Source: Psammoneis japonica (Eukaryota). Taken from it: a DNA stretch of 36,278 bases. The stretch lies in assembly GCA_008632985.1 (NCBI GenBank), contig QPGO01000377.1, positions 1-36,278 on the forward strand, given 5' to 3'. A program made the translations under genes and the position numbers. Below the pieces are notes generated by a model. That model searched no databases, was not told the DNA's origin, and saw only the letters and a list, made by a program, of their open reading frames with translations. Shown here one piece after another: positions 1,851 through 27,099 of the stretch. Within the stretch, counting starts at the first letter, position 1, and each line of letters opens with the position of its first letter.

Positions 1851-1872
1851 TACAATATGGTAGCGATTAAAG

Positions 1873-6455: not shown

Positions 6456-8209
6456 GCATTTGAATAAGGTTTTATGGTTTTTTAATACAAAATAGATTTA
6501 AAATGTCACATCTCAAACTTTCATCATGGTTTGGCATTGTTTCTGCCCCATGCCGGTAGAGTGCAAGACAGCTGAAACAGCATCAAAATGGATTTATCTT
6601 CAAATTTCTTAAGGAGTGAACAGAGCAGCATGAAATGTGGTGGTTGCCATCTGACATGTCATCAAAGCACGGCCATTTGCTGTTGTCTTGATGTGGCTGA
6701 CTTCAGGGGCTGCACAATGTCAAGAAGACACAACATCCACAGTGATTGCAATGCACTGTGCTGTGTGGAGGACAGAGAATGCACAGTGCCAACAGATCTT
6801 TGATTTGTCTCAGACAAATGTTTTGTGTTTTCTACTATGACACAACCTTCACTGCACCAAAAACGAATCAATGGCTGAATTTTTTGTGCTAAAAAATTGA
6901 CTTCACAAAAAGCCTCACTCCAATGCCACAGCAATTGTGGGATAAATGTGGGGATAACCCCATTAAGGTGGGCCAGTTGCTCTCTATTTAGTGTGAATTT
7001 GGCCCAAATCATGGCTCATGATTTTCTGCCAAAAAGTTTTGCCACACTTGCAACACAGCAACCATGGCAACTTTGGATGATCCAGGTGAGTGCAAGAATG
7101 GAGGGGGGCCAACTCTTGATCATTTTACATCCCTTGTGCATCAAAGGTCAGATGCACATTAAAAGTTGGTGGATGCTCTGCTGCATTTTGGAGAATGAAT
7201 GGTGCGCATGCCAACTTGCACCACGATGACTCATCTGCATCACACTCATCCTCTGTTGCTTTTCATTTTCTCACAGAGGAGCGCACGGAGGCAAGGCAAA
7301 GAAATGCCACAACAAACCTCAAGACACAAGACAAAGAGTCTCAACAGAGTTGTGGCAGGGTGAGAACATCTGAGAAGAAGACCTCAGTGCTGTTGGTTTG
7401 CTGCCAGCCAACCTTTTGCAACATGTCCACATTGTGCTCATGCTGTGTTGCTTTTCTTTTTTGTCACACTCAGGAAAGGCAAAAACATGCCACAAAATGA
7501 TGAAAACACAAGATGAAAGACAGACTTGTCAAGTGTTGATGTTTCCAAGGTCCACAAATGGAGCAGTCACTGCTCAGAGCATTTTTTAACAACCCAATTC
7601 AAGATTTTTTGCCACATGCAGCATGAGATTCAGAGAGCTCTGCACAGGTTCCAGAAGGACATCATTGACACTTGTGTGAAGAGCTTCTCACTGCTGGATG
7701 CTGCACTCTTGCTTGTTTGCTTGGCAAATGGATGGCATTCAAAGTCATGTTGATGTGCAGTGTGTTGCTCACTTTGCACATCTTCACAAATTCTTTTCTC
7801 CAGGATTGCCAAAAATGTGACACAAGATTCACAATGGTGTGGGAGAGGCCAGGACAGCAACAACCATGCAATGCTTCTCCAGTTGCCTGGTGCCACTACA
7901 TTCATGGTGTAAAAATGTGTGTGATGCTTTTCTTGTTGAGGCCAGTGGTCTTGTCAAATCTGCCCCACCTGTCAGTGAATCACAATGCTTCCATGCAGTT
8001 GTGCTTTCCCTTCAAAACTGCCTCTGTTGAGACCTCTGTGATGAGGAGGCAAAAGGTGCATCTCTTACACTCTTGGAAGATGTGGGTGGCAGTTGATTTG
8101 CCACCATACCTGCTTCTTAGGAAGCCACTCCAGCAGCAAACACAGCAATGCATTTTCTCAGCTTTTGCACTCAGCCATGTTGATCCACTCAGTTGTCATT
8201 GCATAAGAA

Positions 8210-8850
8210 ATTGCACACATTGACTTGTCTTCAAATCACAAACAAGAGCAACAATGCTGTCCCATCACAAATTGTTTTCTTCTCATTTCCTCATGAGCCA
8301 CATGGGTTGCAGTGTGCTCACAATGCCATGAAGGATTCACTTGTTCAAATGTTGTTGGCATGTGACAAAGAGAAGCTGACATGCCAAAGTGTGCCACTCA
8401 ATGATGGGATTTGGATTTAGGGCATGAGGTGATTTCTTCTTCACAGACACTCATCCTCTGATCTGAAATCATGAGCTGATGCGGGCAAAACATGGGCTGA
8501 AAAAGTTGGGGATGACCCCCCTCAAGGCAGATTGCACACATTTAACTTGTCTTCAAATCACAAACAAGAGCAACAATGCTGTCTTGTCACAAATCATTTT
8601 CTTCTCATTTCCTCATGAGCCACATGGGTTGCAAAGTGTGCTTGCAATGCCATGAAGGATTCACTTGTTCAAATGTTGGCATGTGACAAAGAGAAGCTGA
8701 CATGCCAATGTGTGCCACTCAATGATGAAATTGGATTTTGGGCATGAGGTGATTTCTTCTTCACAGACGCTCATCCTCTGATCTGAAATCATGAGCTGAT
8801 GTGGGCAAAACATGAGCTGAAAAAGTTGGGGATGACCCCCCTCAAGGCAG
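8210..8850 (+). repeat. Tandem duplication, ~320 bp x2, within decayed TE-like sequence
   Basis: 8210-8530 and 8531-8850 both start ATTGCACACATT and end CTCAAGGCAG; many of the differences are CA<->TG or CG->CA/TG. Confidence 0.95.
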
Positions 8851-9479
8851 CCATGTGCCACAAATTAAATGCCACAAGGCTGTGCTTGGTTTCTTGTTGG
8901 TGCAGGGCTGATTGTTGAGAAGATGGCAACTCCTCTGGCATGCCAGATGGTGGTGTGGATTTCCATGCTGCAAGTTGTCTGGTTGCATTCACCAGATTCT
9001 GGCCCATCTGGATGGCTTTCATGATTTTTGTCAGTTGTGTTTTGTGAAAAGCATTTGACCAAATGCTGCATTGCCTTTCATCAGTGCAGAGTCTCCACTT
9101 GCACTCTGTCTGAGGTGTCATCCTGAGAAGACATCCAGGTGATGCACCAAAAGATGCATGAAACACTGTGCACATTCAACCAATCATTGAAGTGACAAAC
9201 CATTTTACGCTTCTTTGTGGGAAGTGGGAACACCCAAGCTAAAGCAACCACACCTCCAACTCTGATGCCATCAGAGCATCATCAAGTTTGCTTGTCACAC
9301 CCATTTTTGTTGAGCACTCTCCACTGGCTCTGCCAGCAGTTTTGTTGAGCCCCCAGCATTTAATTGTTGCCACAGATCATTTTGTGGATATGCCACACAT
9401 GCCACCATCTCAGGCACTGCTCCTCACCCTGTGGCCCTCCTGAGACCCAAGACAGCTCTCCATTGACAGCTCCGAGCAA

Positions 9480-10320
9480 CCTGAATGACATGGTGAACAT
9501 TCCCAAGGGTACTCAGCATCTGATCATTGAGCCATTTGCTCCATGGCCCTGATGTTTGCTGCTCTGCAATGTCCAACATGGACTCATGCGAGCCTCCTGC
9601 CCCCAAGCATGGTGGATTGGCAATGACAGGGTCCTCTGATTGTGTGGCCTGGACTAGAAGCAAGCCCCAGGCTGACTGGTCTGGTCTCAACCCTCCTGCT
9701 GCCACTGCACTGTCATCAACCAACCAACAACAACACTCTCATCATGCCAGCACCACCCAAAAGAGCAAGGCCTGTCACACTGTGGTTCTTGCCACCCATT
9801 TTGCCAAGCAAGGAGACCTGCCAACATTTGAGAGGAATGCAATGAATCATCTAAATGACTGTGGAACAAATGCCATCATGCTTGTCTCCCAGATCCCAAG
9901 AACCTGAACACTGTGAGATGCTGTTTGGCCAGACACTTGAAGTGTGCCAAGACAAGCACCACCACCCTGATTGCCCCTCATCATCTCAACTGTGAATCCT
10001 GTCCTCATGCTGACAACAAAAATGCTGTTGCTTCCCAACAGCATCACTGGATCTGGATCTGATCAGCAAGCTTGATTTTGAGGTTGAAGACACCAACTCA
10101 ATCCCTCAGGTCTGGATGGCATTCATCATGGCTCTTTGCAGTCCATCCATTGAGTGCTTCAACAAGCTCAAAAAGGATGTTAAAAAGTGCAGCCTGCCCC
10201 AGCATCCTGGATGGGACCTGTTCTTGCTCTCCAAGGACTTGAAGACCAACACACAAAAGAGCCAGACACAACTGGCCAGTGCAAACATCATGCACTATGT
10301 CGAGGGGTCATGCTGGTGAA
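9480..10320 (+). mobile_element. Ty1/Copia-type gag relic
   Basis: Fragments PKHGGL..CVAWTRSKPQADWSGL, DLPTFERNAMNHLNDCG..I and SIECFNKLKKDVKKCSLPQHPGWDLFLLSKDL resemble diatom Copia (CoDi-like) gag. Heavily frameshifted; recognised by eye only. Confidence 0.4.
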
Positions 10321-10499
10321 AACAATGACATCACATTTGCAATGTCAGAACATCTGATCTAGTTTGTCTGCATCACATCTGAATTCTCAATGGGCAGTTG
10401 TGCTGTCCAGCATTGCATTTTCACGGCTCGGCCCTTCCACAAAATCTGACGTTGCACAATTGGATGTGACATAGAATCATCATGCAATGACTGGCAATG

Positions 10500-13400
10500 C
10501 TGCACTGTTTTACTGGTCATCGGATGACACTGTTTGTTGCTGCTGCTGCCAAATTCTGCACCATCTGCTGCAGCACCAGATTCCATTCATGCAACATCAC
10601 ACTTCCATCATCTTTTTTGTTTCTTCTGGAGATGCTCCCTGTCTGCAACTGTTGGTCACTGCAAGGAATGCAATGTGCCACCCCGCAGCACCCATTGTTT
10701 TTCACATCACACATGCAACCCGCTGCATGTTTTGCAAGCTTTGCATTTGAAACCAACAAGCTCCTGGGATGTCTCACACTGTTTGAAGTGTGATAACTTG
10801 GTGTGGTTGTGCACCTTGCACTCCATGTAGCATGTGATTCTTCACCTGTCCTTTGGGTTGGTGCAGCCAAAGCACGGTGTTTTTTGTTGTCCAACTGCAA
10901 TGAGCATGTCTTGTGGCACTTGTTGCCACAGTTGACACAAGGTGTTGCTCCATTCTCCAATGTTTCCTTGCATGCGCAGCATGTTCATTACTCCTGTTCT
11001 TGGTCAGTGTCCTTTTCAGCCTCTTCCTCTTCAACTCTTTACCAACACTCCTCCACCAACTCTTTGCCAATGTTTTCTTCTGGCTCCCACATTTTTTGGT
11101 TTGTGACCCAAAGTACGAGATGCTTGTTCTGGCGCTTCCTGCATCTGAGCAATGCCTTGACTGACCGTTGATCCTCCTCAAGTTCCTCCAGCTTGTTGCC
11201 TGTTTCATTGGTGGCTCTTTCCTTGGTGGCATTTGCATCGTCACCTGTTTTGTCAGTGGCATTCGACAGTTGTGTGTCATTGTCTTTGCTCATTTTGCCA
11301 TTTGATTTTTTCTTGCCGGTGCCACTGCCTACATTAATTGTGTTTGCTTTCTCACAAGTCCCTTCTTTACTTTTTTTGTTCGTCATTTGCTTTTTGGATC
11401 CCTTCCCTTTCTTGGAGCTCTTCTTGTTTCCCTTCTTTCTCTTCTTCTCCCTTGCTTTCACAGCCAGCAACCCCCGCCCAACAGTGCCCTCCATGATCAT
11501 GTTGTTGAACTGTCTCCTTTCTGCCACGATGTAGTTGACTGTTGCAGTTGGATTCTTTTGGATGTTCTGTGAAGAGTTGGTTGAGTTCCTCTTTGTTAAA
11601 CAAGTGGTCGGGTCCCTGCTCTTCTTTGGTTTCTTCTGAGTCGGTGCCTTCATTTGTTGTGTGGTCTCCCATTGCATTCTTCTTTCCCCGTGTCAATTCT
11701 GCCCTTGCTTCCTTTGTTGCCTGTGAAACTTGTTCAAATTCTGGTCAGAGAAGGACACGACAAGACAAAAACTGCATGGCACACTCACCTCTTGAATGTC
11801 ATGCTGCATCTCTGCCTGCCTTGTTTCTGGTTCTCTGTTTCAAAGCAAATCCTGGTGTTGACCTTGATCCTCCTTTCTGTCCATGTTTTCAGCATGGTCC
11901 CCTGTGCCTCCAACACCTGCTTCCTCCCACGCCCATGCTCTCTCCAACCCTTGGTCATCAGCACTCCCAGAAAATGATCCTGTCTCATGTTCCACACCCT
12001 CGCTGTCACTGTCATTGATTTCTGTTGGAACTGTGATTGAATCTCAGTGTGCCACCCCATCCGTTTTGGTGTTGCCATTGTTTCTTCTGGCTTGATCACT
12101 GTTCCAACATTGGTGTGCTGTCCAGTCGTTGTTTGCAGGATGACTTGATGTTGGAACAGTGTTTGCATCTCTGGGTGCTGCCCACTTGTTGTGTGCAGGA
12201 CCATGCAGTGTTGGAACAGTGTTCAAATCTCGGCGTGCTGTCCAGTCGTTGTTGGCAGGACCCTGCAGTGTTGGAATGGTGTTTGAATCTTGGTGCACTG
12301 TCCAGCAGTTGTTTGTCAGACAACTTGGTGTTGGAACATTGGTTGAATCTTGGGGCACTGTCCACTCCTTCTCAGTGGGATGACTCACTCTTGGAGTGGT
12401 GTTTGAGTCTTGGCATGCCATCTGCTCCTTGGCAGGGTAACCCAGTCCTCCACTGGCAATCCGCAGTTTCAATCTGTCACTGCCAAAGTCCAAGGCCTCT
12501 TCTACCTGTCTTGCAGCATTTGCTTCAAAAATGACTGTCTTGAACTGGCCAAATTTGATGCCACCGTCCTTGCAATGTGGCATCTTTGGCAGAATGGTGC
12601 AGTCTACATTGTGCTCTCTTGGCAACCTTGAAACATGCTTTGGTGACTTCATGACCATTTTCTCAAAGTGGAAAACTGCAACAGTTCTCCTTTCTAGGGT
12701 CATGTCAACCCATTTGGTGCTGTTCCTGATGCTGAGGCAGTGTCCACAACAGTGGGTTTTCAGAGAATCATTCAGTTCCCTTGTCTTGCGTGTCTTTTCT
12801 GCTGCAACAATTTTCGTGCCACAACTGTGCTTCTTTCTGTGGGGAACAAAGCCATCTGAATGCTTGTAGCCATGTTCCCTCCAAGTGACTTTCTCCATGT
12901 TCAACAACCAATCGGATGTGGAAGGCAGCACTCCATCCCACCCACATTGGTCTCTCGGCTGTCCATTTTGCGGCATCTCAGAACTTGCTCTCATTTTCTC
13001 TCATGCCACAAGCTGCTGACACCACCAACAGCATTGCCTCAATGTTGTTAATGGCATCCTTCTTTATCTTCTTCATGAAAGAGTCATGCTTCTTCTTGAC
13101 AGATTCCCTGTCAGTCTCGTCAGCCACCTTTGTGGAGCTTGCTCCATGGCATTTCTTGACAAGATGAGTGATGTGATCTTCCATTGCTGCCTTGCTTTGT
13201 ATGTTGTCATGGTCAAACAGCAGAGTGATGCTGTGGTCTGTTTTTCCTCTCTGAACATCCAGTGCCTCTTGATGGCAACCTTGCCATTGCTGCTGTTTCC
13301 TCCAAAGGTGCTCGTGATGTCCCAGAGAGCCCGTGCCATGGTTGCCAGACTCATTTTGTTCCTTCTTGTGGGTGCAACAGCAACATCTCCAACGTGCTCT

Positions 13401-14300
13401 CAAAAACTGTGTTGTTGTGTTGCATTTTGGCTTGGCTGAAACTTTGTCATTTTGCTGGGATTTCAAATCTTTGCTGTTGCCTCCTGCACATTCCAGAAAC
13501 ATCATTGTCATTTTTTGACATCCATTTCGAATTGTGTTCTTATTTGGGATGCAATGTTTTCAATGAATCCAATTTTGAACAATTGCAATTGCCGTCCATT
13601 TAAAGTTGGATAACTTTTGAAATTTGTGTTTGTTTTTGGCACAGTGCACCGCAATTCACATGATGACATCACATGCACAAAGTCAGATGACACCTGTGCT
13701 ATCCATTCAACAGCACAGCAGTACAAGCGTCCTTCTGTGGTGTGACATCACCAATGCAAAGTCAGAATTTCTCTGATTTTTGTATGCATTTGCGTCTCCC
13801 TTGATGCACGTCAAAAATGGGAAGTCAGATTTTTTGTTGCTGTGCACTTTACAACTGCGAATTGCATGGGTTGTGAACACACAATGTTGAGAGCAACAAC
13901 AAGCAAAAATGCCAACAATGACTTGGCTGTGTCCACAATGAAATTTAAATTCATCCTAAAAAATCTAGCAGGCATGGAATCATAAGACTTGCACATCAAA
14001 GATGGAGTGCACATCCTTGGAGACATTAGCAAGTTGATGCTGAGTGCAAGAAAGAATGGGAGTTCCCATTCACCATCAGAGGCTTGTCATGTGAGGAAAA
14101 GACTATACCTGCACTGTGCATCCTTCCAGCATGGCCTTGTTAAAAATGTTCGAACACCACAATGGTGAAGTCACACACTGCAACAAAACAAATGATGCCA
14201 TGGGCAACTTGGTTTGCAAGGACAACTTGGTTTTTCTTTTGTGGGGTGGAGACGAAGATTACATCCTTGACCACCCTGATGTCCCATGAACCTGCCATTT
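10500..14300 (-). mobile_element. Degenerate DDE transposase gene (Sola2-like) with C-terminal chromodomain and PHD finger
   Basis: Relic motifs in order on the minus strand: (Q)DEFKFHCGHSQV ~13930-13960; FLECAGG ~13480-13500; HGTG.WD...FGG...IKR ~13270-13345; RKKHS...THCCGHCL ~12735-12845; 20-aa repeats; Lys-rich linker; chromodomain VKALLRCRKRQNKHLVLWVTNQKMWEPEENIGKELVEE ~11045-11165; PHD-like CCAC...CVNCGNKCHKTC...CFGC ~10860-10985. Confidence 0.45.
12100..12425. repeat. 60-bp minisatellite (~5.5 copies) encoding 20-aa repeats on the minus strand
   Basis: Period-60 units TTGGAAYRGTGTTYRAATCTYGGYGYRCTGTCCAGYMGTTGTT...; they translate as WT..xDxNTxPT...ANN in ORF 12044-12994. Confidence 0.9.
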
Positions 14301-15770
14301 CAAAAGTGCCGAATTAGTTAGAGTTGAAGCATCAACCATTCATGGCTGAAGAATGGGCACACATGAGACCTGTGGCATGGTGGGTCCGAGACTGTGGCAA
14401 TGACCTTGTCCCTGATAAAGACCAAGAAGTCAAGGACCGTCTGTGTGGCAATGTCAAGGACCATCTGTGCGGCAATGAACCCAACAACCTAGCCTGAGTT
14501 GCTTGATTGTAAGATTAATTTGTACAGTTCTTTACACTAATGGGTTTAGCAAAATCTGACCACAAAGCACCAATGGGGGAGTGGGGCTGGTGGACACCAA
14601 ATTGAGGTGACAACTTGTCTTCACAGACAACCCCGGTTGTTGGGAAGGCTGTGGTTTGTGCAGCAGAATCACTGGCCATTCGACGCAAACTGTAAATTAA
14701 CAATTATCAACTGCTTCATTGGTTGGGAAGGTTAGCCACATCTTTGTCCAAAATTGCAAGGACAAAATGGGTGTACCGTCCCTCTCCAGAAAAATCAATC
14801 TGGTCATCAAACAATCTTGTTGCATGACACACACACCCAACAAATTGTTTCAAATGCTCTTGATGTAGTCGCTCTTTCTGGAACACATCATCCTCCCCCA
14901 CAAACAGATCCATGGTCCAGCAGTTGATTACTTCTGGAATCAAATCAAAGAGCTCCATCTCTCTGCAATGGAATGAATGTGATCTCAATGCTGGATGAAC
15001 TCCACATTGGAACAATTCCACTAACTTCTTTGCTTCAAAAAGGATGCCATTGATGTCCATGACTAGTCCATGACAAGTGCCCAGGAGGAAGGTCTCCTTG
15101 GTCTTGACAAGCTTCACAAGGGGGCTGCATGCCCCATTGTTGTCCATGCCACATGTGGGCAAGCCAGATCTTGACTTGCACCCAATGTCTTGGATGTCAT
15201 CCTTGCTGAAGACCAACTGCCACTTGTCCCCCAACAAACTAGCAATGCAATGATCCCCAATGCACTTCTCTGCACTGTGTCATTGATGAGGACAGTGTGT
15301 TCTGCCTTGCCTTGAGGCTCGGCATCCAAAAATTTGCCAACAGTCTTTTGTCTTTGTCGCTTCATGGGCTCACAACTTCACATTTGTGTGCAACTCTCTA
15401 ATCATCATGGATGGAGAACATCTTTGTAATGGTGAACACTTGCTTCTGTTGTCTCCTCACTCCACCCGGCCATGTCTTCATGGACTTCTGACATTGTCTT
15501 GTGCCTGCAATGCCAGAGCTGCCTCCAAAGGCCCAAGTCTGGTGGGTGCCCCCAATGAGACAGTGGTGCATAGTCAGAGTCTTCTTCCTTCATCACCACG
15601 AGATCATCCAACACATGTTGTAGTTGGCAATGTCAAGCCATGCTTGGCCAACCGCACTTGCATTGTGGCCCTCACGGTGATTGCCCTGTGAGTTTCCGTG
15701 AGGGGCCACATTCCTGTTGGAATTGTTGCCTTTAAAAAGAGACACTGAGACATTCAATGTAAACAGTTCA

Positions 15771-15972
15771 GCAAAGTGATCCAGTTTTTGGGCCATTTCC
15801 TTCCCAACCAATTCCTTCACAAACTCCCATTGTTGTCTCAAACGTTCCTGCGTGCCAACATGCAAATTAAAGCAAAGTGATCCAGTTTTTGGGCCATTTG
15901 CTTTCCAACCAATTCCTTTGCAAACTCCCATTGTTTTTTCAAACGTTCCGGCATGCCAACATGCAAATTAGA
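15771..15972 (+). repeat. Tandem duplication, 101 bp x2
   Basis: GCAAAGTGATCCAGTTTTTGGGCCATTT... begins at 15771 and 15872. Confidence 0.95.
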
Positions 15973-16933: not shown

Positions 16934-16965
16934 ATAAAAGTAGGCCAGAGAAGTGACATGTAGAT

Positions 16966-17216: not shown

Positions 17217-18784
17217 AGATCGTCAGCAGCATCTGCGGATCCGCGTAGAATTTGTACTAGAACCTGTGTAGAAAATTTTCTGAGACAACAGAAAATTACG
17301 AGAAATAACAACCAGCATACGAACCAACAGGCCGCAACACTCGTCGTTTTCCACTGATGAACTTTGCTCATCATGCTGTAATGAGGATGTACCATTGGTA
17401 AACGGGGACAAAATGGGCTTGTTGGAGCCAAAACAACACCGTCTGAGAATGGCAACATCAGCACGAGAACTCGCGTAGTAGAAACACACGCAGGAGGTTG
17501 CTAGTGGGAGCTTACGTAAAAGAGTGAAGATGTGGCAGCAGTTTTCCCATAAGATCATAAAGGCAGTAAGTGGCAGGCATTTCTCCATCTATCATCATTT
17601 TGGTGGCAGTAAACAGACAAATGGGCAAGGTTGGATCAGCTTGGTCAGGTTCACAGTCACTCTCTCTTCAACGGCAGATAACTGGAATCCCACGTAAGCT
17701 TTCATTTTGAATGAAACAGTTGAATTTGTCATTGCTGTGGTGACCCTGCATTGCTTTTTTCAACCACCATGCAATGTGGACACTTGTTTCAGGCTTTTCA
17801 AGTCTGATGACACAGGCAACCATTTTGGGTCCTGCAAAACAAGATTTGTTTAATGCACTTGTTGTTAACTCTGTCAATTTCCTTCAGTGCAATGAGTTTC
17901 ATCCCACCCATGGATAAGTCAGTTGGCATTGCAAAGCTGCTCCAGAATTGCCTGTTTTTTCCTTTGTAATTCGTTCGTGGATACCCTGCCAGGGTTTGCC
18001 AGGCATTTCTGAAGGACATGGACGGTCCTTTCCTCCATGGAAGTGAAAGTGTCGTCACAATCAGAGCACAAAAAATGTTGGCATTGTTACCTTCTGGGGA
18101 GCACGGCAGAGGCACCCTTGGCTTGATCACGGATGGGTCCATGTTGGAGTGCCCATCATCAAACAAGACATGGGCATTTATTGTGGCATTGTCGATGTCA
18201 GCAAACTTTCTTTTGCGGAGAGTAGATGGGCGTAGCTGGTGGGATTTGGAGAAGAAACATTGTGGGTAACTATCCGCTTCATTGTTCAATGTGGTTTTGT
18301 GAGACTCTTGCAGACCCAATTGCCACTGGGCAAGGCAGTGGCTGAAATGCCAAATCCTGCAGGGTCAAGTGGCTTGCTTTGTTTTGGATGAGAATGCATG
18401 TTTTGGGTTTTTATTGCATTCGTGGAAGGGAATTTTCTCTGCAACTTAATGAACCTAATCTGAGTAACATTGCCCAAGGTAGAGAGGTCAGAAGTAAGTC
18501 AGCCAAGTGGAACACCAATTTTGGCAAGAACGCCATTTGACATGATTTCCCAGCTCAGGAATTCCTTGAACGATTCGGTGTTGTCATTGTCCGAGCAATG
18601 ACGCTTCCACAGATCAGTGCCAGCAAACAATTAAACCTCCAATGCATCCTCGTGGGTGACATGCAACCAATGGCATTAGACTTTGGAAAGATGTTTTCGA
18701 AGACACATGTTGCTGTGGATAGAGTGAGACAGTGGACCATGGCGACTCAGGAAAGGGTTTTGGCTTGTGGTCAGCCAGGAGAAG

Positions 18785-18801
18785 GAGAGAGAGAGAGAGA
18801 G
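18785..18801 (+). repeat. (GA)n microsatellite
   Basis: About eight consecutive GA units. Confidence 0.85.
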
Positions 18802-20481
18802 CAATGTTGGCAGTTGAGTTGTCCAGGGAATCTGTTGTTGGTGACAATGGAGGAGGACTGTCAAGGGCAGGTTGCGATGACACATCTGAACTAACGTCAG
18901 GGACATTGGCAACAACCGGTAGTTCGGGAGACTGTTCTGGAGTCAGTGTTGAGCTGTGGGAGCAGTCATCACAGGCTGGCAAAGAGCATTCTGGTGAAAT
19001 GCCAGTGTCTGCAGAATCAGCTTGAAGTTTGGGAGTGTGCTCTGGAGTCATTGGCATGGCAGGAGGGCTGTTGGAGTCAGCTTGGAATTTGGGAGTGTGC
19101 TCTGGAGTTGTTGGTGTTGGCATGCCGGCATGGCTGTCATGAGAAAAGTTGCCAACGTCTGGGGCCAGCACTTCTTGACAATGCAAAGGGGAGTTGTTCA
19201 TGTTGTCCAAAGGAACAGGGGGATTCTTTTTCCAACATTTAGAAGCACAAAAATCAGTGCAAGCAGCATCAATGCCATTAGGAATGGCTGCATTTTTTCC
19301 AAATAATGCACCACCCGACAAGCCACACGAGCGTCTTCAACACATTGTGGATGCTGCCACCACCGCGAGGTGCCAGATGTTGCAATTGCAAAATCTCACT
19401 TGAATTTTTCCTGTTTGATTCTCAATCAATGCTTGCGGTGATGCTTTGCATTGTGAGCTTCTTTGCCTTTGTGACACGTTGCGATGGAGTCCCTGCATGC
19501 AAAGGACAGTTCTCATGTTTGACATTTCCATTGGACTTCTCAGAGCAAAGGACTTTTCCTGTCTTTTTGTTCTCACAGCATTTCTTTTGAGATTTGTTGT
19601 TGCACAGATGTTTGTCCTCATCCTCAAGAGCAGCAATTTCCTCTAGCATTAGAGGAGGACAATCGCATGCATCATTTAAAAAATCAGTGATTTTTTCTGG
19701 CATTGGAGAAGGAGAATCGTGTGGCCTCTTGAAGTGCTCAGATTCAGAAACATCTTTGAACATTGTGGCCTGGATGCCTGCCGTTTGGACAGACCGTGAA
19801 TTTCCAAAGCCTGAGCAAAGAGATGGCCTTGGGTGGGAGGAGCCATTGTGAAAACAAAAAATGGAGGTGAAAGTGCATTGCAATCAAAGTGTGCACTGTT
19901 GGCAAGGTGTGAACTGTCACAAAAAAACAGACACAATGAGCATGAAGAGCAACGGTGTGTGTGTGGAAATGACAATGGAACAAAACGGTGCAGTTATGAA
20001 ACACAGGGGATTCTGACCTTACATCATGACGTATCACTGTCAAGCAAGAATCTGACAAGGCGGTCATGATGTCATCTCATGATGTTTCACCATGTGGCAA
20101 GAATCTGACATGGCATGTTGAAATGGGGGAGAAGTGATCGCCAAGTGCCTGGGTTTCATTGCAATCAACAAGCCATGAAAACTCTCATCTACAATGAGGG
20201 CATGCCAATCTAAATGTCCAGACAGGAACACAACAAAACATGGCTGTTAATTTAAAAAAGTCTTGTGTGACATGGTCAAGAAGTGGAGGGACATCAACAC
20301 AAGGGAGGTTCCGGGGCAAAGTCACTTGAGGTGGTGCACACCTAACATGGAAACCCAACACGAGGGACTCCCTTGAGATTGAGTCCCTTGCCATGGAAAA
20401 AACACCCTCAAGCTGTGCAAAGTCTGGTGAAACCCACATCCTGTGTGTCCCAAACAACTGTTGTTCTTTTGACAAAAATGA

Positions 20482-20941
20482 CATAAGCAGTGATCACCTC
20501 CATTTTGTGGGGAAAAACCGTTAAATAATTTAGTGGATGGATGTGTTTCAATGATCATATCTCTCCCTCAAACACCATCATCCGAATAAACCCTCAGTGT
20601 CTTACCCCCCTTTGATGTATGAGGAATTCGCTTCTGCTGTTCCTTTTCTCCAAAAATGCAATTTTTGAGACCATTAAATAATTTAGTGGACACATGTTTC
20701 AATGATCATATTTCTCCCTCAAACACTGTCATCCGAACAAACCCTCAGTGTCTTACCCCCCTTTTGACACACAAGAAATTTGCTTCTGCTGTTCCTTTTC
20801 TTTGAAAATGTGATTTGAGAAAAAAGCCGTATGTTCGGATGACAGTGTTTGAGGGAGAGATACTTTGATCATTGAAACACATCTATCCACTAAATTATTT
20901 AACGGTTTTTTCCCACATAATGGAGGTGATTACTGCTTATG
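20482..20941. mobile_element. 460-bp foldback/MITE with ~105-bp TIRs and an internal 153-bp tandem duplication
   Basis: CATAAGCAGTGATCACCTCCATT...CATCCGAA (20482-20585) is the reverse complement of ~20834-20941. 20518-20670 is duplicated at 20671-20820. TA dinucleotides at both ends are compatible with a TA target duplication. Confidence 0.9.
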
Positions 20942-21049
20942 GGATCTGATCAGCCCATGGTGCCAGTCAGTTTATAATTCTATTGTTGTAGCATTCATGC
21001 CATGTTAGTTGGCACAGCATGTAGAATGCATGTGGACCACCTCTCAAAA

Positions 21050-22260
21050 GTCAAATTCTGCAAATTTTCTCTCAGATCTTTGATGAATCTCCTCTTAAAT
21101 GGGTCCATGTGGAATTTCAACACATTGTCACATTGCAGATGGCAGCTGTTCCTTCAGACAAAGATTTACTGTGGCAAGCTTGCAGTGTGAACTTGGCTGT
21201 TCAGCATCAGTGCCTGTTGTGAATGAAGGATTCCAGTCAATTGAGACATCACAATTGTGGAGTCTGATGCTGACATTGCCAAAATGGTAAAGTGCATGGC
21301 ATCTTAATGTGGAAGGTTGAGTTGTTGTTTCAGATTGAAAGGATACAGGCTTCTTTGGTGTGATGGGTTCATGATCTTCAGCATCATGGAAACAAATCAG
21401 TGTGGCTGCAGATGCCACAAAGGACATTCTGGCCATCACCAGTCAGCCCAATCTTGTCAAAAAGGAAAGTGCAACTGCAATTGTCAACAACTTGGCAAAA
21501 TTTGAGCCTGCTAATTATTACTTGCATGAAGATGCATTCTTGGATCTGTTGTTGCAAAAGTTGGGAGCACAAAAGGCACCTTTGCATCATGCTGTTTGCA
21601 CTGCTGATGCACCAGATGAATTTGTTGCTCATGATGAGCATCACATGCATGAGTTGCCATTGGAAGGATTGGCACTCAGGGAAGACAATCATCAGGTTCA
21701 TTGCACATTGAAAGAGGATTTGGTTAATGCCCCTGGATGGGCTTGGATTTCTGAGTTCAATGCAGCATGATGCATTTTGGTCTTGGGACAACCATTGCAA
21801 TGGTGGCAAAGGAGAACTCAATGAGTGCACTGCTCTGGCAAAAAGCATCACCAAACAGTTCATCACATCAATGAGAGGGTGCATCCATTTGAGACTCTTG
21901 CAGAGAAACTTACAAAGTCATTTGTAACTCTTGTGTCCCAACTGGAAATGTTTCAAACATCAGAGGAGGTTGAAGCTTTGTAGAACTGAATCCAGACTGT
22001 TGACCCCAAACTTGTAGATTGCAAGGCCATCATCAGTGAGATGCATGGAAGAGATTTTGCAGGAGCATGTGTGTGTTTCTCATCCCAAGTGTCTTGCTTG
22101 CATGGTGGAGCACAACTGGAAACTCATCATTTTTTCAGAGAAAGATTTCAGAGACAAGCCGAGGTAGACCTGGTCATGTTGGACAATGTGGAGGATGATT
22201 CTATGGAAGTGGCAGAGGTGGTTGAGGAGCTGGAAGAGATGGTGGGTCTGATCCAACCAA
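21050..22260 (+). mobile_element. Ty1/Copia-type gag relic
   Basis: APLHHAV...PDEF...HELPLEGLALREDNHQVHCTLKEDLVNAPGWAWISEF, then DH.NG.GE and HGRDF...FSSQV; matches the PL.G..F..DN..V...LK...GW.WI...HY.G pattern of Copia gag. Many expected Tyr appear as His or Cys. Confidence 0.6.
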
Positions 22261-22652
22261 TCCATTTCAGCAAGCAAGTGGGAATGTCTGTTGTGTGATG
22301 GGCTTGTTGACAGAAATTGAAGATGACTGGGTGGAAGAAAGCAATAACTCCTTACTGCTGTCTAAATAGCAGATATGAGTCTCCGTGCAGAGACCGTTAC
22401 AGGAGCCGAAAGACTGGCGTTGTGATGTTGGTGCTACTGTTGTTATTCTTGTGAGCCGAGTGGCTCGAAAGCAAACTACATCACGTGACGCACGCGGAAC
22501 TAAGAGCACACATAATTGTGTGTGATAAACTAAAATCCTGTTCAAATCCTGTCACTTGTGTTCATGCACTGCAAGCTCATGATGGGGATGAACAACACTG
22601 GATGAGGACATGGCGGGGGTTGGTTTGGTGGTCATGGCAATGGGGGCACCAA

Positions 22653-22928
22653 CTCCTCACAGATTAACTTGGTCCTGTCACAGATTAACTTTTTTTATGG
22701 AATCTTGCTCAGTCACACCGCTGCCTTTAATCATCCCAAACTGGATGTTTGCTAAAAGTCTCACTCCCTGGCCCCTAACCTAAACCCTAAACCCTAACCC
22801 TGACCATGCAAAACTGTTTTTTCTAAATGCTGGGATGTAGAAGAGTCACAAATTCGTGTATGTTGTTTTAGTCATGGATTCCTATTTTTGGCTTAATCTG
22901 TGACAGGCACAAATTAATCTGTCAGGGG
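22653..22928. mobile_element. ~275-bp MITE-like element with bipartite TIRs and internal telomere-like repeats
   Basis: Left CCTCACAGATTAACTTGGTCCTGTCACAGATTAA is inversely repeated as TTAATCTGTGACAGGCACAAATTAATCTGTCAGG. CCCTAA/CCCTAAA units at 22773-22803. Confidence 0.75.
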
Positions 22929-22939
22929 TATTTTTTCTC

Positions 22940-23400
22940 CCAAGGACAACTAACATTCTTGCTGAAAAGGGCCGCAACAGAAGCAGCACTTTCACCACAA
23001 AGAGTGAAGGACTTGATTGCACAGTGAGGAAAAGAAGCAGTGTTGAAGACTGATTGGCAAGGATAAAAGCAGTCTGGAGATGTGACATGTAGATCGTCAG
23101 CAGCATCTGCGGATCCACGTAGAATTTGTACTAGAACCTGTGTAGAATATTTTCTGGACAACAGAAAATTAGGAGAAATAACAACCAGCATACGAACCAA
23201 CAGGCCGCGACACTCGTCGTTGTCCACTGATGAACATTGCTCATCATGCTGTAATAAGGATGTACGATTGGTAAACGTGGACAGAATGGGTTTGTTGGAG
23301 CCAAATCAACACCGTCTGAGAAAGGCGACATCATCAGTGCAAGAAGGTATGTAGAAACCCACGTAGAAGCTGAGGGCGTGTAGCTCCTGACATCAAAAAG
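22940..23400 (-). mobile_element. Truncated second copy (5' portion) of the SINE-like element
   Basis: Aligns with 16811-16965 plus 17221-17523 without the MITE. Homology ends near the same terminus as the full copy. Confidence 0.9.
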
Positions 23401-25749
23401 TGTGTCTTGCATCACAGAAAACAGATGAACAACTGGCACAACACAGTTTTGAAATGATGCCCCATTGACTCAATGTTCATTGTGATGATGGTTGCATGCC
23501 ACAGCAGCCCTGTCTCGCAAAAAGTGCACTCGCATCTACATCTTGCATGGGGTGAGCCCATGTGTCATGCAGCAGGACTCATCACTCATGGTGGCAACCA
23601 TGACTGAGTGAGTTGTTGCAGTTTCTGCAAGGGAGGATGGATGAAGGCCAGGCATTGCATTAAAAATGACATTTTGACAACAACAGTTTCAATTTTTGGT
23701 TGCAATAAAAAAGATTCCATCACAATTGTCTCATGGAGCAGGTGCAATTTAAGGCACCATGCAAACCAAGGCACACTTCCATTGGCCTGACCCACACACT
23801 GCAGTGCTCGCTGGTCTTGAAGTGGGTCTGCAGCAAGGAAGCACAACACAACAATGGTTGGACCAAACACAAGGGGCAACGTGGTTACACGACATCACTG
23901 TGGTGCGATGGCACAGTGGGAAGCCCCATTGGCGCTTTTTTTTGACGAGCTATGAGCTCCACTAAATTTTCATGAGCTTGGGTTAAACTGTGTGCCATGA
24001 ATGTGGCACTAAGCCTGTGGGAGACAGTCGCATCAACAACAAAATGGAAGATAAAACATTTTTGACAACACTAAACACTTTTAAAACAATTGTGGCTAAA
24101 CCAGTCTAGACCACTCATCACAACAAGATGGAATGGCACACCCAAGTTCACTGCAACTCCCCTCATGCCATTGCCATTGACTTCACCACCATCTGCTGCA
24201 CCTTGCACCAGAGTGCACCACCACTTTGACACCTCTTGGACCACTTCTTTGGTTGCAGTGTCACCTGATTCCAAAGACTGGATCTTTGCTTTCAGCTTTG
24301 AAGCTCAGTCATGATCCTTTTTGCTTTTGTCAGGGGGCTGGCCTCTGCTCATGCAACCACAACAAAAACAACATGGTGCACAAGCCCTGCTTGTGTGCAG
24401 TTTTTTGATGTCACCATTCTTCTCACTGTAACTCTTTGCCTTTGTGGCTGGAAGCAGCTCTGGTGGCTTGGCTCTCATTTCTTCCTTCTTGTTTGCATCT
24501 TCCAAGTGTCATGCATTCCAGCCAGCTGCTCTCAACCTCTTGCCACATGGGAAGCAAACAACTCCAACCAGCTCTTAAGTTTGGTCTGTTCATGTGGTTT
24601 GTTCACAATTCCAGATTGAACCCCCATCATTCTGTGTTGAAATGATGTGCTGCCATTTTGATGCTTGACCTTGCTGCTCCAGCATCTTTTTTCACCTCTC
24701 TCAATGTCATGTCATTGGTGGCAGGACCGCAATCTTTTCTCTTGAATGTTGCCCAAGTCTGTGCCAAGATGTGTGGAAGGCTCACAAGATGCATTGCCAC
24801 TGCACTTGTTGTCTTGATGAAAATTAACCACATGCACAAAGAGATCTTCACCTCTGCCTCTTAATTTGTCTGGAACAAGCTTGAGCCAATGTGAGAGGCT
24901 GTAGCTTTTGCACCCTTCACTGCCTTGTGTGCTGCCACAACTTTTGGGTTATCAGTGGCACACAATGTTTGAGAAGAAGTGAGTCACAAAAGAGAGCTTT
25001 GCCTTCTTTGCATCTTCCTGTGTTTTGGGAAGCTTCAAAGGTGGTGCCATGATTGATCTTTGAAGGGAAAGGAGTGTGCCAAATCTTGGTGGTGTCCTGC
25101 ACAGAAATCAGCATTGTTTCCATGTGTGACACAAAATTGCCTTAATGGGAGACATTGGTCCTGTCATCAGTCATGAAATGTTTTTCGAGGGACAGAAAAT
25201 GACAACATGGAATTTCAGAGTGGGATGGCACATGTCAAAACTTAAAAGCGGAGCTTGTCCAAGGCACATGAGTTGCCAGTCACCAATGGTTTTCCTCTTT
25301 CCTCACCACTTTTCAATTCACCATGGGGGAGCAGCTCACAATCTAGATGATTGCCCACTTTTCACACTGCTCTACATTGAAGTGGTGCTTTGACACATCA
25401 TTTGAACTCATTTGCATCAACCATGACTAATCTCCCACCAAGCAAACTTGTCTCATGAATCCTCTGTCCAAGACATTCACCCCAGAGAAGTGTGCATCAC
25501 ACACCCATGGTTGCATCACTTTTGCATCCTGCCAAGCCATCACCACTGAGGTGGGCAATGCTGAATGCTGCCTCACATTCAACATCAACAAACGCACTGC
25601 AGCCAACCCATCCAGATTGTCCCCCACTGACCTCAACACAATGGTCATTTTGACCTGTTCCACCAGCCACCAGTGTCATCCTTGACATCCAAGCTAAAGA
25701 GCATGAGACCATTGGCAAAAGATCTCTCAAACAACCAGCAAATTTGCAG

Positions 25750-26520
25750 GCACTGTTCTTGACAGATTGCCAATGGCAAGAGCAATGAGCTAAAGAGCTC
25801 CTTGCAAACTGGTGACAGTGGACAACACTTGTGCTGGTGGAAGAAAGACTGAGAGAAGCAGATCTCAGAGAGATCTGCTCATCTGTCTAGGTCTGATCAT
25901 CATCCATGCCCTTGGTGTGCTGACACCCTCCCCTGATGATCTGTGATGTCTTGCGAGACAAAGCAGGTCACAAAGAAAGAAAAAATGCAACAGCATGCCA
26001 TGCCCACCACAAAAACAACCTTGCCAATGAAAAGGTGCCACACAGCAAAATTGACAATGCAAGAAATGGTCAAGCTCAACACGCACAGCAAAGAAACCTC
26101 ACCAGGCAATGACATGTCCACAAAGTCTCTAACAGCAGCAGGGCACATGGGCTGATCTATTGAAGTCTTCAACAAAAAATTCAAAAGCAATTTCCAACAA
26201 ATCTTGTGGATCAATTGAGTTTTGAACCAAAGAACAATAATTTTGTCAATCCACAAACACAATCAAAATCAAAGGGACATTCTGGTGAGTCACAAAATTC
26301 AACATGGCATGTGATGCATAAAAAATGAAGTGACAGCAGTCCACCAGACAAAACCATGCTTGTGCCACATTGTGTTTTGTCCCTGAAAAACACAGTGGAC
26401 AAACAAAGTGCATCATAAAAGTGCTCAACTTTAGAACAACATTGATGTGTTGCAGGCAAGCATTGAATGACCTGTGAAAAAAAATCACCATAGAAAGCAT
26501 CTTGGAAGAATCTTGAACAC
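25750..26520 (+). mobile_element. Merlin/ISXO2 (IS1595-family)-like transposase relic
   Basis: Degenerate motifs in order: VTVDNTCAGGRK (cf. VExDETYxGG.K) ~25811, VSNSSRAHGL (cf. SD.WRAY..L) ~26124, NFVNPQT..TIKIKGTFW (cf. NFV.P.T..TN.IEG.W) ~26238-26285. Several deviations fit CG/TA decay. Confidence 0.4.
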
Positions 26521-27099
26521 TTCACAGCCTTGTGTCGTCTGGTGGGGCAATAATCTGACATCACGCGCAAACTTGCATGTGACATTTTTGCCCGTCATGT
26601 CTGAATTTTTTTAAATTTAATTTAAAATTTTTTGCACGCTGTGTCAGAAATCTTACTTGTGATGTAAGTTTTCTTGTCATGTGTTGCAAGAAAATTTAAG
26701 TGTAACATCCATGCGGAGAACGTTACCAACGTTTTCAAGTGTAACACTCGTTCACTTTTCACCATGCGACAATTTACCTTCGGACTAGTCCCTGATTCAC
26801 ATTGCTTTCAAACCGTTCTTTAAATCTAATAAGCACACGGACAATGTTCCCAACATTTTACAGTGCAACACTTGGACGCTTTTCACCGTGTGAAATATTT
26901 CTTCCCGGTCAACAGCCCGACTCACATTCCATAATGTTGCAGCTGCCAAACTGATTTGATTTTTTTGGTTAATGCCTTTGCTATCGTCATTGTGTGCCAC
27001 ATGCTAGCAAACGTTGCTGCCATGCCGCCCGCATGCTCGTTGTGTCCTTGCTCGCTTCTGTGGGTTATTGTTCACTCTGCCTCCTCGAGAACCCGTTTG

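What the first reader, a model, noticed from the sequence alone, without database searches (positions are those of the whole stretch)
6560..26600. Repeat-restricted double dinucleotide decay: both CpG and TpA converge on TpG/CpA
Seen: the TE DNA is saturated with TG/CA and poor in both CG and TA, whereas the gene island (~1550-6500) and younger inserts keep both. Duplicates suggest the direction. Three copies of the foldback arm read GGA-TA (right TIR), GGA-TG (~20537) and GGA-CA (~20690). GATGTATGAG vs GACACACAAG implies ancestral GACGTACGAG. CACGGTAAG/GAAGTAG/AAAGTAG (16881-16943) correspond to CACAGTGAG/GAAGCAG/AAAGCAG (23020-23072). Expected Tyr codons appear as His or Cys in the gag, chromodomain and Merlin relics. 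Known: CpG loss follows 5mC deamination; fungal RIP creates TpA rather than removing it. Inference: a second, repeat-targeted T:A->C:G process at TpA (base modification, deamination or biased repair), possibly an unrecognised genome-defence mutator.
Basis: partly seen in the sequence, partly recalled or inferred. Interest (0 to 1): 0.78.

Follow-up and report, generated by a model that had tools for sequence, protein, structure and literature searches.

The report
Silent diatom DNA loses CpG and TpA
In the gene-poor, repeat-rich DNA of this diatom both CpG and TpA have been almost completely converted into TpG/CpA, which points to a second, TpA-specific mutation process, not found in print here, working alongside ordinary methyl-CpG decay.

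Summary
In 6560-26600, CpG and TpA observed/expected (O/E) are 0.23 and 0.22, and as low as 0.02-0.1 per kb. TpG and CpA are 1.72 and 1.71. The gene island, including its non-coding parts, keeps CpG about 1.0 and TpA 0.7-1.5. The two depletions track each other along the window (Spearman 0.82).

I polarised substitutions in a LINE-like retroelement copy (31318-36276, minus strand) against at least 10 outgroup proteins per codon. A:T>G:C transitions hit 12 of 62 TpA opportunities but 2 of 250 elsewhere. G:C>A:T hit 15.5 of 55 CpG opportunities but 3.3 of 320 elsewhere. The reverse changes (TG/CA>TA) were 0 of 111. The hot motif is RTA/TAY; TTAA is spared. The same test on 59 related loci from other organisms gave a low background, including copies that have lost only CpG.

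Its supporting details do not. The duplicate pair it cited is not directional. No gag, chromodomain or Merlin relics were found. Much of the most depleted DNA is single-copy at 80% identity. The mechanism is unknown: biased T:G mismatch handling, or a dedicated base-modifying enzyme. Ten literature searches (of 14 attempts) found no report of this.

The parts
1..1400 (.). strongly CpG- and TpA-depleted block left of the gene island
   Evidence: 1-1550: CG 0.15, TA 0.12, TG 1.76, CA 1.96. (CG+TA) share of YpR steps is 0.02-0.06 per 400 bp.
1600..6400 (.). gene island that keeps CpG and TpA: cis-prenyltransferase (+ strand, about 1864-3196) and a Miro-type GTPase (- strand, 3533-6367)
   Evidence: CG 1.01, TA 0.71. 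Pfam Prenyltransf E 6e-19 and 8e-37. Miro ORF best hits are diatom proteins at 44-62% identity. Non-coding pieces have CG 0.92-1.28 and TA 0.84-1.51.
6500..16300 (.). most depleted block; mostly single-copy at >=80% identity
   Evidence: (CG+TA)/YpR is 0.01-0.20. In 7201-10400 there are 10 CG, 20 TA, 366 TG and 386 CA. Depth is 38-53 for 11001-15002, and X1 contigs match with 0 differences.
8210..8850 (+). tandem duplication, 2 x 320 bp, inside the depleted block
   Evidence: TRF period 320, 93% matches. Differences include 3 CA|TG double differences. Identity is 97% after purine/pyrimidine recoding.
16400..17600 (.). less depleted, high-copy insert
   Evidence: CG 0.52-0.88, TA 0.49-0.67. Depth is about 2300-2400 against a single-copy depth of about 37.
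17600..22300 (.). depleted block, mostly single-copy, containing a foldback element
   Evidence: (CG+TA)/YpR is 0.04-0.21. Depth is 37-57 except at the foldback bin.
20482..20941 (.). foldback element with 76-nt inverted arms and an internal direct copy
   Evidence: Arms 95% complementary. The 148-bp direct pair is 84.6% identical in ACGT but 98.0% after R/Y recoding, with 6 CA|TG double differences. Depth is 795.
22400..23500 (.). very high-copy repeat with intermediate depletion; related to 16500-17500
   Evidence: Depth up to 24123. Pairs 16808-16965/22937-23094 and 17213-17496/23087-23369.
23600..26400 (.). depleted block
   Evidence: (CG+TA)/YpR is 0.03-0.13. Depth is 134-220, but 1194 in bin 25675-26341.
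26400..31300 (.). repeated DNA with intermediate depletion
   Evidence: CG 0.5-0.8, TA 0.3-0.55. Depth is 776-1669 up to 28999.
31318..36276 (-). near full-length but broken copy of a LINE-like retroelement (endonuclease plus divergent reverse transcriptase), running off the window end; used to polarise substitutions
   Evidence: tblastn with 153 family proteins covers 31318-36276 only. It aligns to residues about 100-1930 of P0128, across frame breaks. Pfam is weak: Exo_endo_phos in the window ORF; RVT_1 and zf-RVT below threshold in relatives.

Best explanation
SHOWN. The window comes from a diatom. Outside a 4.8-kb gene island its DNA has undergone two transition processes at DNA level that run in parallel, and both end in TpG/CpA. 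One is CpG>TpG/CpA. The other is TpA>TpG/CpA, of similar strength, with the preferred motif RTA>RCA (equally, TAY>TGY). TTAA is almost spared. The loss appears stochastic site by site, with no clustering and no periodicity. It is roughly strand-symmetric at large scale and reaches more than 90% in the oldest DNA.

INFERRED. The CpG arm is ordinary deamination of 5-methylcytosine in methylated, silenced DNA. For the TpA arm my best guess is a side effect of how T:G mismatches are handled in that same chromatin. In this model an activity that resolves G:T mispairs towards G:C, there to undo 5mC deamination, also acts on replication-error G:T mispairs when the T lies in R-T-A, and so fixes T>C. 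It would be recruited to methylated DNA, or left unopposed where normal strand-directed mismatch repair is weak. TpG>CpG 'corrections' would stay invisible, because the new CpG decays again. TpA>CpA is irreversible, so TpA drains away.

I put about 0.85 on the phenomenon being real and directional. I put about 0.35-0.4 on this class of mechanism, and the confidence figure below refers to the mechanism.
For: Composition and mass balance: CG and TA fall together, TG and CA rise by the same amount, other dinucleotides barely move, and GC content is 0.456 versus 0.478.

Polarisation against outgroups: of 362 conserved codons, 292 are kept, 55 differ by one step and 15 by several. A:T>G:C hits TpA 12/62 versus 2/250 elsewhere (Fisher 1e-7). 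G:C>A:T hits CpG 15.5/55 versus 3.3/320 elsewhere (5e-12). Reverse changes: G>A at TG 0/59, C>T at CA 0/52, T>C at TG 0/51, A>G at CA 0/46. Tyr is kept in 6/15 columns versus 286/347 for other residues (p 4e-4); the losses are Y>C 5, Y>H 3, Y>F 1. Other thresholds give the same picture (15/95 versus 6/333; 5/31 versus 1/152).

Method control: of 60 loci with at least 100 conserved codons, the window copy ranks 1st for TpA rate (0.194; the other 59 pooled give 93.8/3418 = 0.027). It ranks 2nd for CpG rate. L079 shows CpG decay (0.33) without TpA decay (0.028).

Most family members in the 80 metagenome loci have CG about 1.0 and TA 0.6-0.75, so low TA is not native to the family.

Flank preference was found twice, independently. 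Survivors in 17.9 kb of old DNA: ATAT 0.03, ATAC/GTAT 0.06, GTAC 0.07, against TTAA 0.42. Polarised events by the 5' neighbour of the mutated T: A 5/30, G 9/26, C 0/19, T 1/21 (RTA 14/56 versus YTA 1/40, p 0.003).

DNA level rather than RNA level: TG is 1.72 and CA 1.71 over 20 kb. Both T>C (4/30) and A>G (8/32) occur on the coding strand. Foldback and tandem copies differ almost only by transitions (84.6% to 98.0% identity after R/Y recoding).

A rate bound from the oldest 3.2 kb: (TG+CA)/(2xTA) = 18.8.

Precedent for the mechanism class: very-short-patch repair, which counters 5mC deamination, is held to eliminate CTAG in E. coli and Salmonella (passages of PMC5337935). Repair of T/G and U/G mispairs is mutagenic for flanking DNA (abstract of PMC3999860).
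Against: The mechanism is not tested at all. No methylation data, no proteome and no whole genome were available. Vertebrates and plants have T:G glycosylases and methylated repeats, yet to my knowledge show no such TpA loss, so something specific to this lineage is needed. CG-only decay in other organisms' copies of the same family (L071, L072, L079) makes the same point. An efficient T:G>C:G activity should also slow CpG decay, yet CpG decay here is extreme.

The polarised sample is one element, with 12 TpA events, and lies outside the coordinates of the finding. Some of its changes could be fixed differences of the local subfamily rather than decay after insertion. The fit of ln(TA) to ln(CG) and the fit to CG itself are equally good (r2 0.60 each), so coupling to CpG events is neither shown nor excluded. 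Bin 25675-26341 is strongly depleted yet has depth 1194, which does not fit a simple 'older means more decayed' picture. Run X1 may be the sample the window was assembled from, and its platform is not on record.
Confidence: 0.38

Rival explanations
1. A dedicated base-modifying enzyme is targeted to silenced DNA and acts on TpA. It could oxidise thymine (TET/JBP type: 5hmU or 5fU, which can pair with G) or deaminate adenine in DNA (TadA/ADAT-like: A>I, read as G). TpA erosion would then be the mutational footprint of a second mark or defence mutator.
For: The dinucleotide and flank specificity is sharp (RTA/TAY), which looks more like enzyme recognition than general polymerase error. TpA is palindromic like CpG, so both strands can carry the mark. 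The process is lineage-specific, since other organisms' copies show CG-only decay. From memory, not from a call: base J and dinoflagellate 5hmU sit preferentially at T followed by A, and tRNA A34 deaminases always act on U-A.
Against: No modification or enzyme data exist. A search for diatom plus 5-hydroxymethyluracil returned only dinoflagellate papers. 5hmU itself is weakly mutagenic, and no natural nuclear dsDNA adenine deaminase is known to me. The tight quantitative tracking with CpG loss (rho 0.82) would need separate explanation.
Confidence: 0.28
2. Error-prone patch synthesis is triggered by 5mC deamination, by non-canonical mismatch repair or long-patch BER using a Pol-eta-like polymerase, as in the A/T phase of antibody hypermutation. 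Each repaired T:G would seed A>G errors at nearby TA.
For: It explains the co-location and proportionality with CpG decay. ncMMR makes most A/T mutations around deaminated C, and WA is a hotspot motif (passages of PMC6423074).
Against: WA includes AA, but A>G at AA is 1/34 against 8/32 at TA. The AA and TT O/E rise rather than fall (1.04 to 1.19). Survivors show no clustering. TpA loss would have to stop once CpG is exhausted, yet ATAT reaches 0.03.
Confidence: 0.12
3. A-to-I editing of retroelement RNA before reverse transcription, so that hypermutated copies are inserted already changed.
For: On the coding strand of the polarised element, A>G at TA (8/32) exceeds T>C (4/30). A clade of metagenome copies shows only sense-strand A>G at TA.
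Against: T>C occurs too. TG and CA are equal over 20 kb. A foldback element, tandem repeats and single-copy DNA are depleted alike. CpG loss is not explained. The metagenome clade shares the same columns, so that signal is inherited rather than independent.
Confidence: 0.04
4. Artefact or trivial composition: modified bases miscalled during sequencing, or repeats that were natively poor in TA with only CpG decay acting on them.
For: The platform of X1 is not on record, and X1 may be the source sample.
Against: Six X1 contigs of 966-3628 bases, at k-mer depth about 32-37, match the depleted stretches with 0 differences. Outgroup polarisation shows that TA was ancestral. Most relatives of the family have TA 0.6-0.75.
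Confidence: 0.04

Closest known systems
Methyl-CpG decay (5-methylcytosine deamination in silenced repeats)
   Same: CpG-specific G:C>A:T transitions giving TpG/CpA. Confined to non-genic DNA. Appears to progress with the age of the DNA. One arm of what is seen here is very probably exactly this.
   Different: It does not touch TpA. Copies of the same retroelement family in other organisms show CpG loss with TpA intact (L079, L071, L072).
Fungal repeat-induced point mutation (RIP)
   Same: Hypermutation by transitions, specific to a dinucleotide context, in repeated or silent DNA while genes are spared.
   Different: RIP turns CpA into TpA and enriches TpA. Here C>T at CpA is 0/52 and TpA is destroyed. 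GC content hardly falls (0.456 against 0.478). No dependence on duplication was shown.
Very-short-patch (Vsr) repair and CTAG scarcity in enterobacteria
   Same: A system that corrects T:G to C:G in order to counter 5mC deamination is held to erode a TA-containing word into CCAG/CTGG, that is TA>CA/TG (PMC5337935 passages; that paper cites Bhagwat and McClelland 1992).
   Different: It is bacterial, tied to CTWGG, and genome-wide. Here the motif is RTA, the effect is regional, and no enzyme has been identified.
A/T phase of somatic hypermutation (ncMMR plus Pol eta, WA motif)
   Same: C deamination leads secondarily to A:T mutations nearby, and TA is a hot context (PMC6423074 passages).
   Different: AA is not hit here, and transitions to G:C are nearly exclusive. 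The setting is germline-scale genome evolution in a protist.
Mismatch-repair-deficiency mutation spectra (recalled from memory; no call)
   Same: As I recall, they combine raised CpG>TpG with T>C peaks at ATA-type contexts.
   Different: The recalled spectra are not nearly as TpA-exclusive (here 12/62 versus 2/250), and they are not regional to this degree.

Membership tests
5mCpG deamination decay | G:C>A:T transitions concentrated at CpG, polarised | tested here: met
   15.5/55 at CpG versus 3.3/320 elsewhere.
5mCpG deamination decay | the affected DNA is cytosine-methylated | not testable with these tools
   No methylation data. Diatom TE methylation is known only from the literature (PMC9998398: title and start of abstract in the search listing, and term-search passages).
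Fungal RIP | C>T at CpA creating TpA; raised TpA/ApT | tested here: not met
   C>T at CA is 0/52. TA O/E is 0.22 with AT at 0.90.
Fungal RIP | acts on duplicated sequence only | tested here: inconclusive
   The most depleted DNA is single-copy at >=80% today, but it may once have been repeated.
RNA-editing hypermutation of retroelements (ADAR/ADAT type) | A>G on the sense strand only, and only in retro-copied DNA | tested here: not met
   T>C 4/30 beside A>G 8/32. TG 1.72 equals CA 1.71. Foldback and tandem repeats are affected.
SHM-type ncMMR/Pol eta mutagenesis | WA hotspot (both TA and AA) | tested here: not met
   AA 1/34 versus TA 8/32. AA O/E is not lowered.
SHM-type ncMMR/Pol eta mutagenesis | A:T mutations depend on nearby C deamination | tested here: inconclusive
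   The coupled and independent decay models fit equally (r2 0.60 each).
VSP-like T:G>C:G biased correction | net T>C at T followed by A, products CA/TG, no reverse flux | tested here: met
   12/62 forward versus 0/111 reverse.
VSP-like T:G>C:G biased correction | a T:G-specific endonuclease or glycosylase is present and acts in this chromatin | not testable with these tools
   No genome or proteome is held.
LINE-like (non-LTR) retrotransposon, for 31318-36276 | endonuclease (EEP) domain followed by reverse transcriptase in one long ORF | tested here: inconclusive
   EEP is weak in the window copy (E 0.004) and clear in relatives. RVT_1 and zf-RVT are only below Pfam's cut-off in 1 of 4 relatives each. 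No PDB match.

The most novel reading that the evidence does not exclude
Diatoms of this lineage carry a chromatin-targeted enzyme that chemically modifies T or A within RTA/TAY in silenced DNA. This would be a second, TpA-based mark or defence mutator parallel to CpG methylation, and the near-total erosion of TpA would be its evolutionary footprint.
Probability: 0.27. Interest if true: 0.92.

Novelty: new variant of a known kind. Interest (0 to 1): 0.77.

Why it matters
Context-specific hypermutation of silent DNA is known as C>T only: CpG decay and RIP. A regional A:T>G:C process at TpA of equal strength would be a new mutational signature in eukaryotes.

It has practical consequences. It removes TAA and TAG stops and Tyr codons from dead genes, so decayed DNA is full of long false ORFs rich in Cys, His, Gln and Trp. 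It keeps GC content constant, so GC- or RIP-index-based scans miss it. It also makes old repeats unrecognisable faster than CpG decay alone.

The footprint can be read from sequence alone. Surveying diatom and other algal genomes for joint CG/TA loss, and correlating it with gene presence (T:G glycosylases or Vsr-like nucleases, TET/JBP, deaminases), would make the mechanism directly testable.

Tried and rejected
1. Pfam on ORFs: 104 of 104 ORFs >=90 aa outside the gene island, and 150 of 184 ORFs of 55-89 aa (the last 34, from 29386 onward, were not scanned). Nothing was found in 6400-29587 apart from a sub-threshold Rft-1 match.
2. Six-frame read-through with X at stops for Pfam.
3. Whole genome: none is held.
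4. Read laying showed only 40 of 1330 variant rows, too few for a context test. No RNA holder was listed.
5. In-window duplicates for direction: not directional.
6. Purine/pyrimidine-recoded self-BLAST to find ancient repeats: none beyond those already known.
7. tblastx of 1-31300 against the 80 metagenome loci: 0 hits.
8. Atlas look-up of ORF 14719-15279: best score 0.83, uninformative.
9. Last word-index homologue search, with ORF 28764-29453: no hit.
10. Coupled versus independent decay fit: undecided.
11. Nucleosome-scale periodicity or clustering of surviving CG/TA: none in 26600-36278.
12. Apparent sense-strand A>G at TA in metagenome loci L057, L058, L067 and L069: rejected as independent evidence because the same columns recur.
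13. Earlier notes of this scan: nothing on this genome or topic.
14. Literature: 10 full-text searches ran and 4 further attempts were rejected for term format. None found a report of joint CpG/TpA erosion in diatom or other repeats. PMC9998398 does not contain 'TpA', 'deamination' or 'CpG depletion'.


Full report
WHAT THE WINDOW IS. The 683-aa ORF at 3533-5584 (minus strand) is a Miro-type GTPase. Its named best relatives are all diatoms (Nitzschia, Seminavis, Pseudo-nitzschia, Cylindrotheca, Amphora) at 44-62% identity. Next to it lies a cis-prenyltransferase gene (Pfam Prenyltransf). No whole genome is held. One public run, X1, holds 97% of the sampled words of 3000-12999 and may be the source sample.

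THE OBSERVATION. Dinucleotide observed/expected (O/E) ratios are as follows.
- 6560-26600: CG 0.23, TA 0.22, TG 1.72, CA 1.71.
- Gene island 1550-6500: CG 1.01, TA 0.71, TG 1.10, CA 1.09.
- 1-1550: CG 0.15, TA 0.12.
- After 26600: CG 0.60, TA 0.47.

Single 1-kb windows reach CG 0.02 and TA 0.07. Against shuffles, CG is 238 versus 1039+-25 and TA is 332 versus 1488+-27. There are no TG/CA microsatellites. The mean O/E of the four YpR dinucleotides is the same in genes and in depleted DNA (0.98 versus 0.97). AT does not co-vary with the loss, GC, AA and GG do so only weakly (rho -0.24 to -0.46), and GC content changes little (0.478 versus 0.456). So what CG and TA lost is what TG and CA gained.

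Over 72 500-bp windows, CG and TA O/E correlate with rho 0.82, or 0.76 without the gene island. The map at 400-bp resolution shows sharp edges at about 1400-1600 and 6400-6800. It also shows two less depleted inserts (16400-17600 and 22400-23500) and an intermediate right-hand third. Non-coding pieces of the gene island keep both dinucleotides (CG 0.92-1.28, TA 0.84-1.51).

IS IT REPEAT DNA? Only partly shown. I laid the contigs of X1 on 9000-28999 at >=80% likeness. Single-copy depth is about 37. Bins 11001-15002, 17671-19671 and 21006-21672 stay at 37-53, so they are unique at this stringency. Bins 15670-17670 (768-2381), 20339-21005 (795), 21673-23673 (up to 24123, roughly 650 copies) and 25675-28999 (776-1669) are repeated. 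Six contigs of 966-3628 bases match the depleted stretches without a single difference, so the depletion is in the reads' assembly too.

Pfam found no TE domain in 104 of 104 ORFs >=90 aa, or in 150 of 184 ORFs of 55-89 aa. A self-comparison after recoding to purine/pyrimidine, which is blind to transitions, found no further ancient repeats. It did raise the identity of the known pairs sharply (84.6% to 98.0%; 76.9% to 91.1%), so those copies differ almost only by transitions.

DUPLICATES. Nine pairwise alignments, some sharing a copy, give these counts: 19 CA|TG double differences, 14 CG|CA, 9 CG|TG, 10 CA|TA, 8 TG|TA, 34 other transitions and 57 transversions. The CA|TG class is the signature of an ancestral CG or TA that went one way in one copy and the other way in the other. 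But pairs cannot say which ancestor it was. The quoted strings are real, but the directional inference from them is not.

POLARISATION. The ORF 35098-36276 (minus strand) had four distant homologues. A profile search then found 8936 relatives, many of about 1900-2000 aa. tblastn of 153 of them covers 31318-36276 and nothing else in the window. That stretch is a near full-length, frame-broken copy of a LINE-like element: an EEP endonuclease, with RVT_1 and zf-RVT only weakly detected in relatives.

For every window codon I collected the residues that at least 10 homologues align to it. I kept codons with at least 60% consensus, 362 in all. Of these, 292 are kept, 55 differ by one step and 15 by several. 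I classified the single-step changes by type and neighbour, and normalised by the number of non-synonymous opportunities. The results:
- A:T>G:C at TpA 12/62, elsewhere 2/250 (Fisher 1e-7).
- G:C>A:T at CpG 15.5/55, elsewhere 3.3/320 (5e-12).
- Reverse steps are absent: G>A at TG 0/59, C>T at CA 0/52, T>C at TG 0/51, A>G at CA 0/46.
- Conserved Tyr is kept in 6 of 15 columns (Y>C 5, Y>H 3, Y>F 1), against 286 of 347 for other residues (p 4e-4).
- Looser and stricter consensus thresholds agree (15/95 versus 6/333; 5/31 versus 1/152).

CONTROLS. A scan of metagenome contigs gave 80 loci of the same family. Most have CG about 1.0 and TA 0.6-0.75. A few have CG-only loss (L071 0.47/0.89, L072 0.47/0.83, L079 0.48/0.81), and a few have both low (L058 0.50/0.34, L069 0.45/0.38). 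The same codon test was run on the 60 loci with at least 100 conserved codons. The window copy ranks first for TpA rate (0.194; the other 59 pooled give 93.8/3418 = 0.027) and second for CpG rate. L079 has CpG 0.33 with TpA 0.028. So the method does not manufacture a TpA signal, CpG decay does not entail TpA decay, and low TA is not native to the family. The apparent sense-strand A>G at TA in L057, L058, L067 and L069 recurs at the same columns (74, 158, 567, 791). It is inherited and not independent. The window's 12 events sit at their own columns.

FLANKING MOTIF. In 17.9 kb of the most depleted DNA, surviving TA by strand-symmetric tetranucleotide is: ATAT 0.03, ATAC/GTAT 0.06, GTAC 0.07, ATAG/CTAT 0.09, CTAG 0.16, ATAA/TTAT 0.17, CTAC/GTAG 0.17, GTAA/TTAC 0.21, CTAA/TTAG 0.25, TTAA 0.42. 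The gene-island values are 1.05, 0.67, 0.86, 0.57, 0.80, 0.61, 1.04, 0.64, 0.44 and 0.46. The pattern is additive per strand in the base 5' of T, in the order A >= G > C >> T. The polarised events say the same: the 5' neighbour of the mutated T is A 5/30, G 9/26, C 0/19, T 1/21 (RTA 14/56 versus YTA 1/40, p 0.003). All CpG contexts are depleted alike (0.10-0.21).

KINETICS. TA loss runs at roughly 0.7-0.9 of CpG loss on a log scale. A model in which TA loss depends on the remaining CpG fits as well as independent decay (r2 0.60 each). Surviving CG/TA sites in 26600-36278 are neither clustered nor periodic, which argues for site-by-site stochastic decay rather than bursts. In 7201-10400 the counts (10 CG, 20 TA, 366 TG, 386 CA) imply that TA>TG/CA is at least about 19 times faster than the reverse step.

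MECHANISM. What is shown: a strand-symmetric T:A>C:G transition at RTA/TAY, most simply read as acting on the DNA itself, beside CpG decay and confined to DNA outside the gene island. What is inferred: the CpG arm is 5mC deamination.

For the TpA arm I rank the candidates as follows.
(i) G:T-to-G:C-biased mismatch handling in methylated, mismatch-repair-poor chromatin, about 0.38. Precedent: very-short-patch repair is held to eliminate CTAG (PMC5337935, passages), and repair of T/G mispairs is mutagenic nearby, though there through APOBEC at TpC (PMC3999860, abstract).
(ii) A dedicated thymine- or adenine-modifying enzyme, about 0.28.
(iii) Pol-eta-type error-prone patch filling as in antibody hypermutation (PMC6423074, passages), about 0.12. 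This is weakened because AA is not hit.
(iv) RNA editing before retrotransposition, about 0.04.
(v) Artefact or native composition, about 0.04.

None of these could be tested without methylation data or a proteome.

NOVELTY. Ten full-text searches ran. None found a report of joint CpG/TpA erosion in diatom or other eukaryotic repeats. The diatom DNMT paper PMC9998398 contains none of 'TpA', 'deamination' or 'CpG depletion'. Subscription-only papers are not covered.

LIMITS. This is one window. There is one polarised element, with 12 TpA events, and it lies just outside the stated coordinates. 'Repeat-restricted' is shown only as 'not in the gene island'. One depleted bin (25675-26341) has high depth and remains unexplained.

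Noticed in passing
31318-36276 (-), and P0128-P0275: The retroelement belongs to a large family: 8936 profile hits, many with ORFs of about 1900-2000 aa. In four relatives scanned, Pfam recognises the N-terminal EEP endonuclease (three of the four above its cut-off), while RVT_1 and zf-RVT stay below threshold, and there is no PDB sequence match. It looks like a poorly described LINE-like clade of diatoms and other protists.
   Followed up: partly
22340-23006: Summed contig depth is 24123 against about 37 for single copy. This would be a repeat of several hundred copies, related to 16500-17500.
   Followed up: no
25675-26341: The bin is strongly depleted (CG 0.06, TA 0.14) yet has depth 1194 at >=80% likeness. 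Either an already eroded sequence was amplified, or a family has evolved to be CG/TA-poor. Unexplained.
   Followed up: no
6800-26350: Because TAA and TAG are nearly gone, the decayed DNA is full of long stop-free frames (up to 318 aa). They have almost no Tyr (0-3 per ORF) and many Cys and His (4-16 each), which is a trap for gene callers.
   Followed up: partly
12110-12364: A 60-bp tandem repeat (4.2 copies, 76% matches) lies inside the 318-aa frame 12047-13000 (-). The surrounding 11-13 kb has strong AT skew (-0.43) and GC skew (-0.23).
   Followed up: no
L057, L058, L067, L069 (metagenome loci): This is a clade of related elements from other organisms, with CG 0.43-0.55, TA 0.34-0.41 and TG above CA on the coding strand. 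They share A>G changes at TA in the same columns. It may be a second lineage with the same footprint, fixed in an active subfamily.
   Followed up: partly
L071, L072, L073, L079, L029: Copies of the same family with CpG loss only (CG 0.47-0.58, TA 0.81-0.89). They serve as natural negative controls and suggest that the TpA process is lineage-specific.
   Followed up: partly
1864-6367: A cis-prenyltransferase gene (+ strand, apparently in several exons) and a Miro GTPase gene (- strand) lie 3' end to 3' end. Their 336-bp spacer (3197-3532) has CG O/E 1.28.
   Followed up: no
9000-28999 versus X1 contigs: Of 1328 places where other contigs differ from the window, 978 (74%) are transitions. Places where the window has A or T and the others G or C number 562, against 416 for the opposite. 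Only 40 rows were visible, so no context test was possible.
   Followed up: partly
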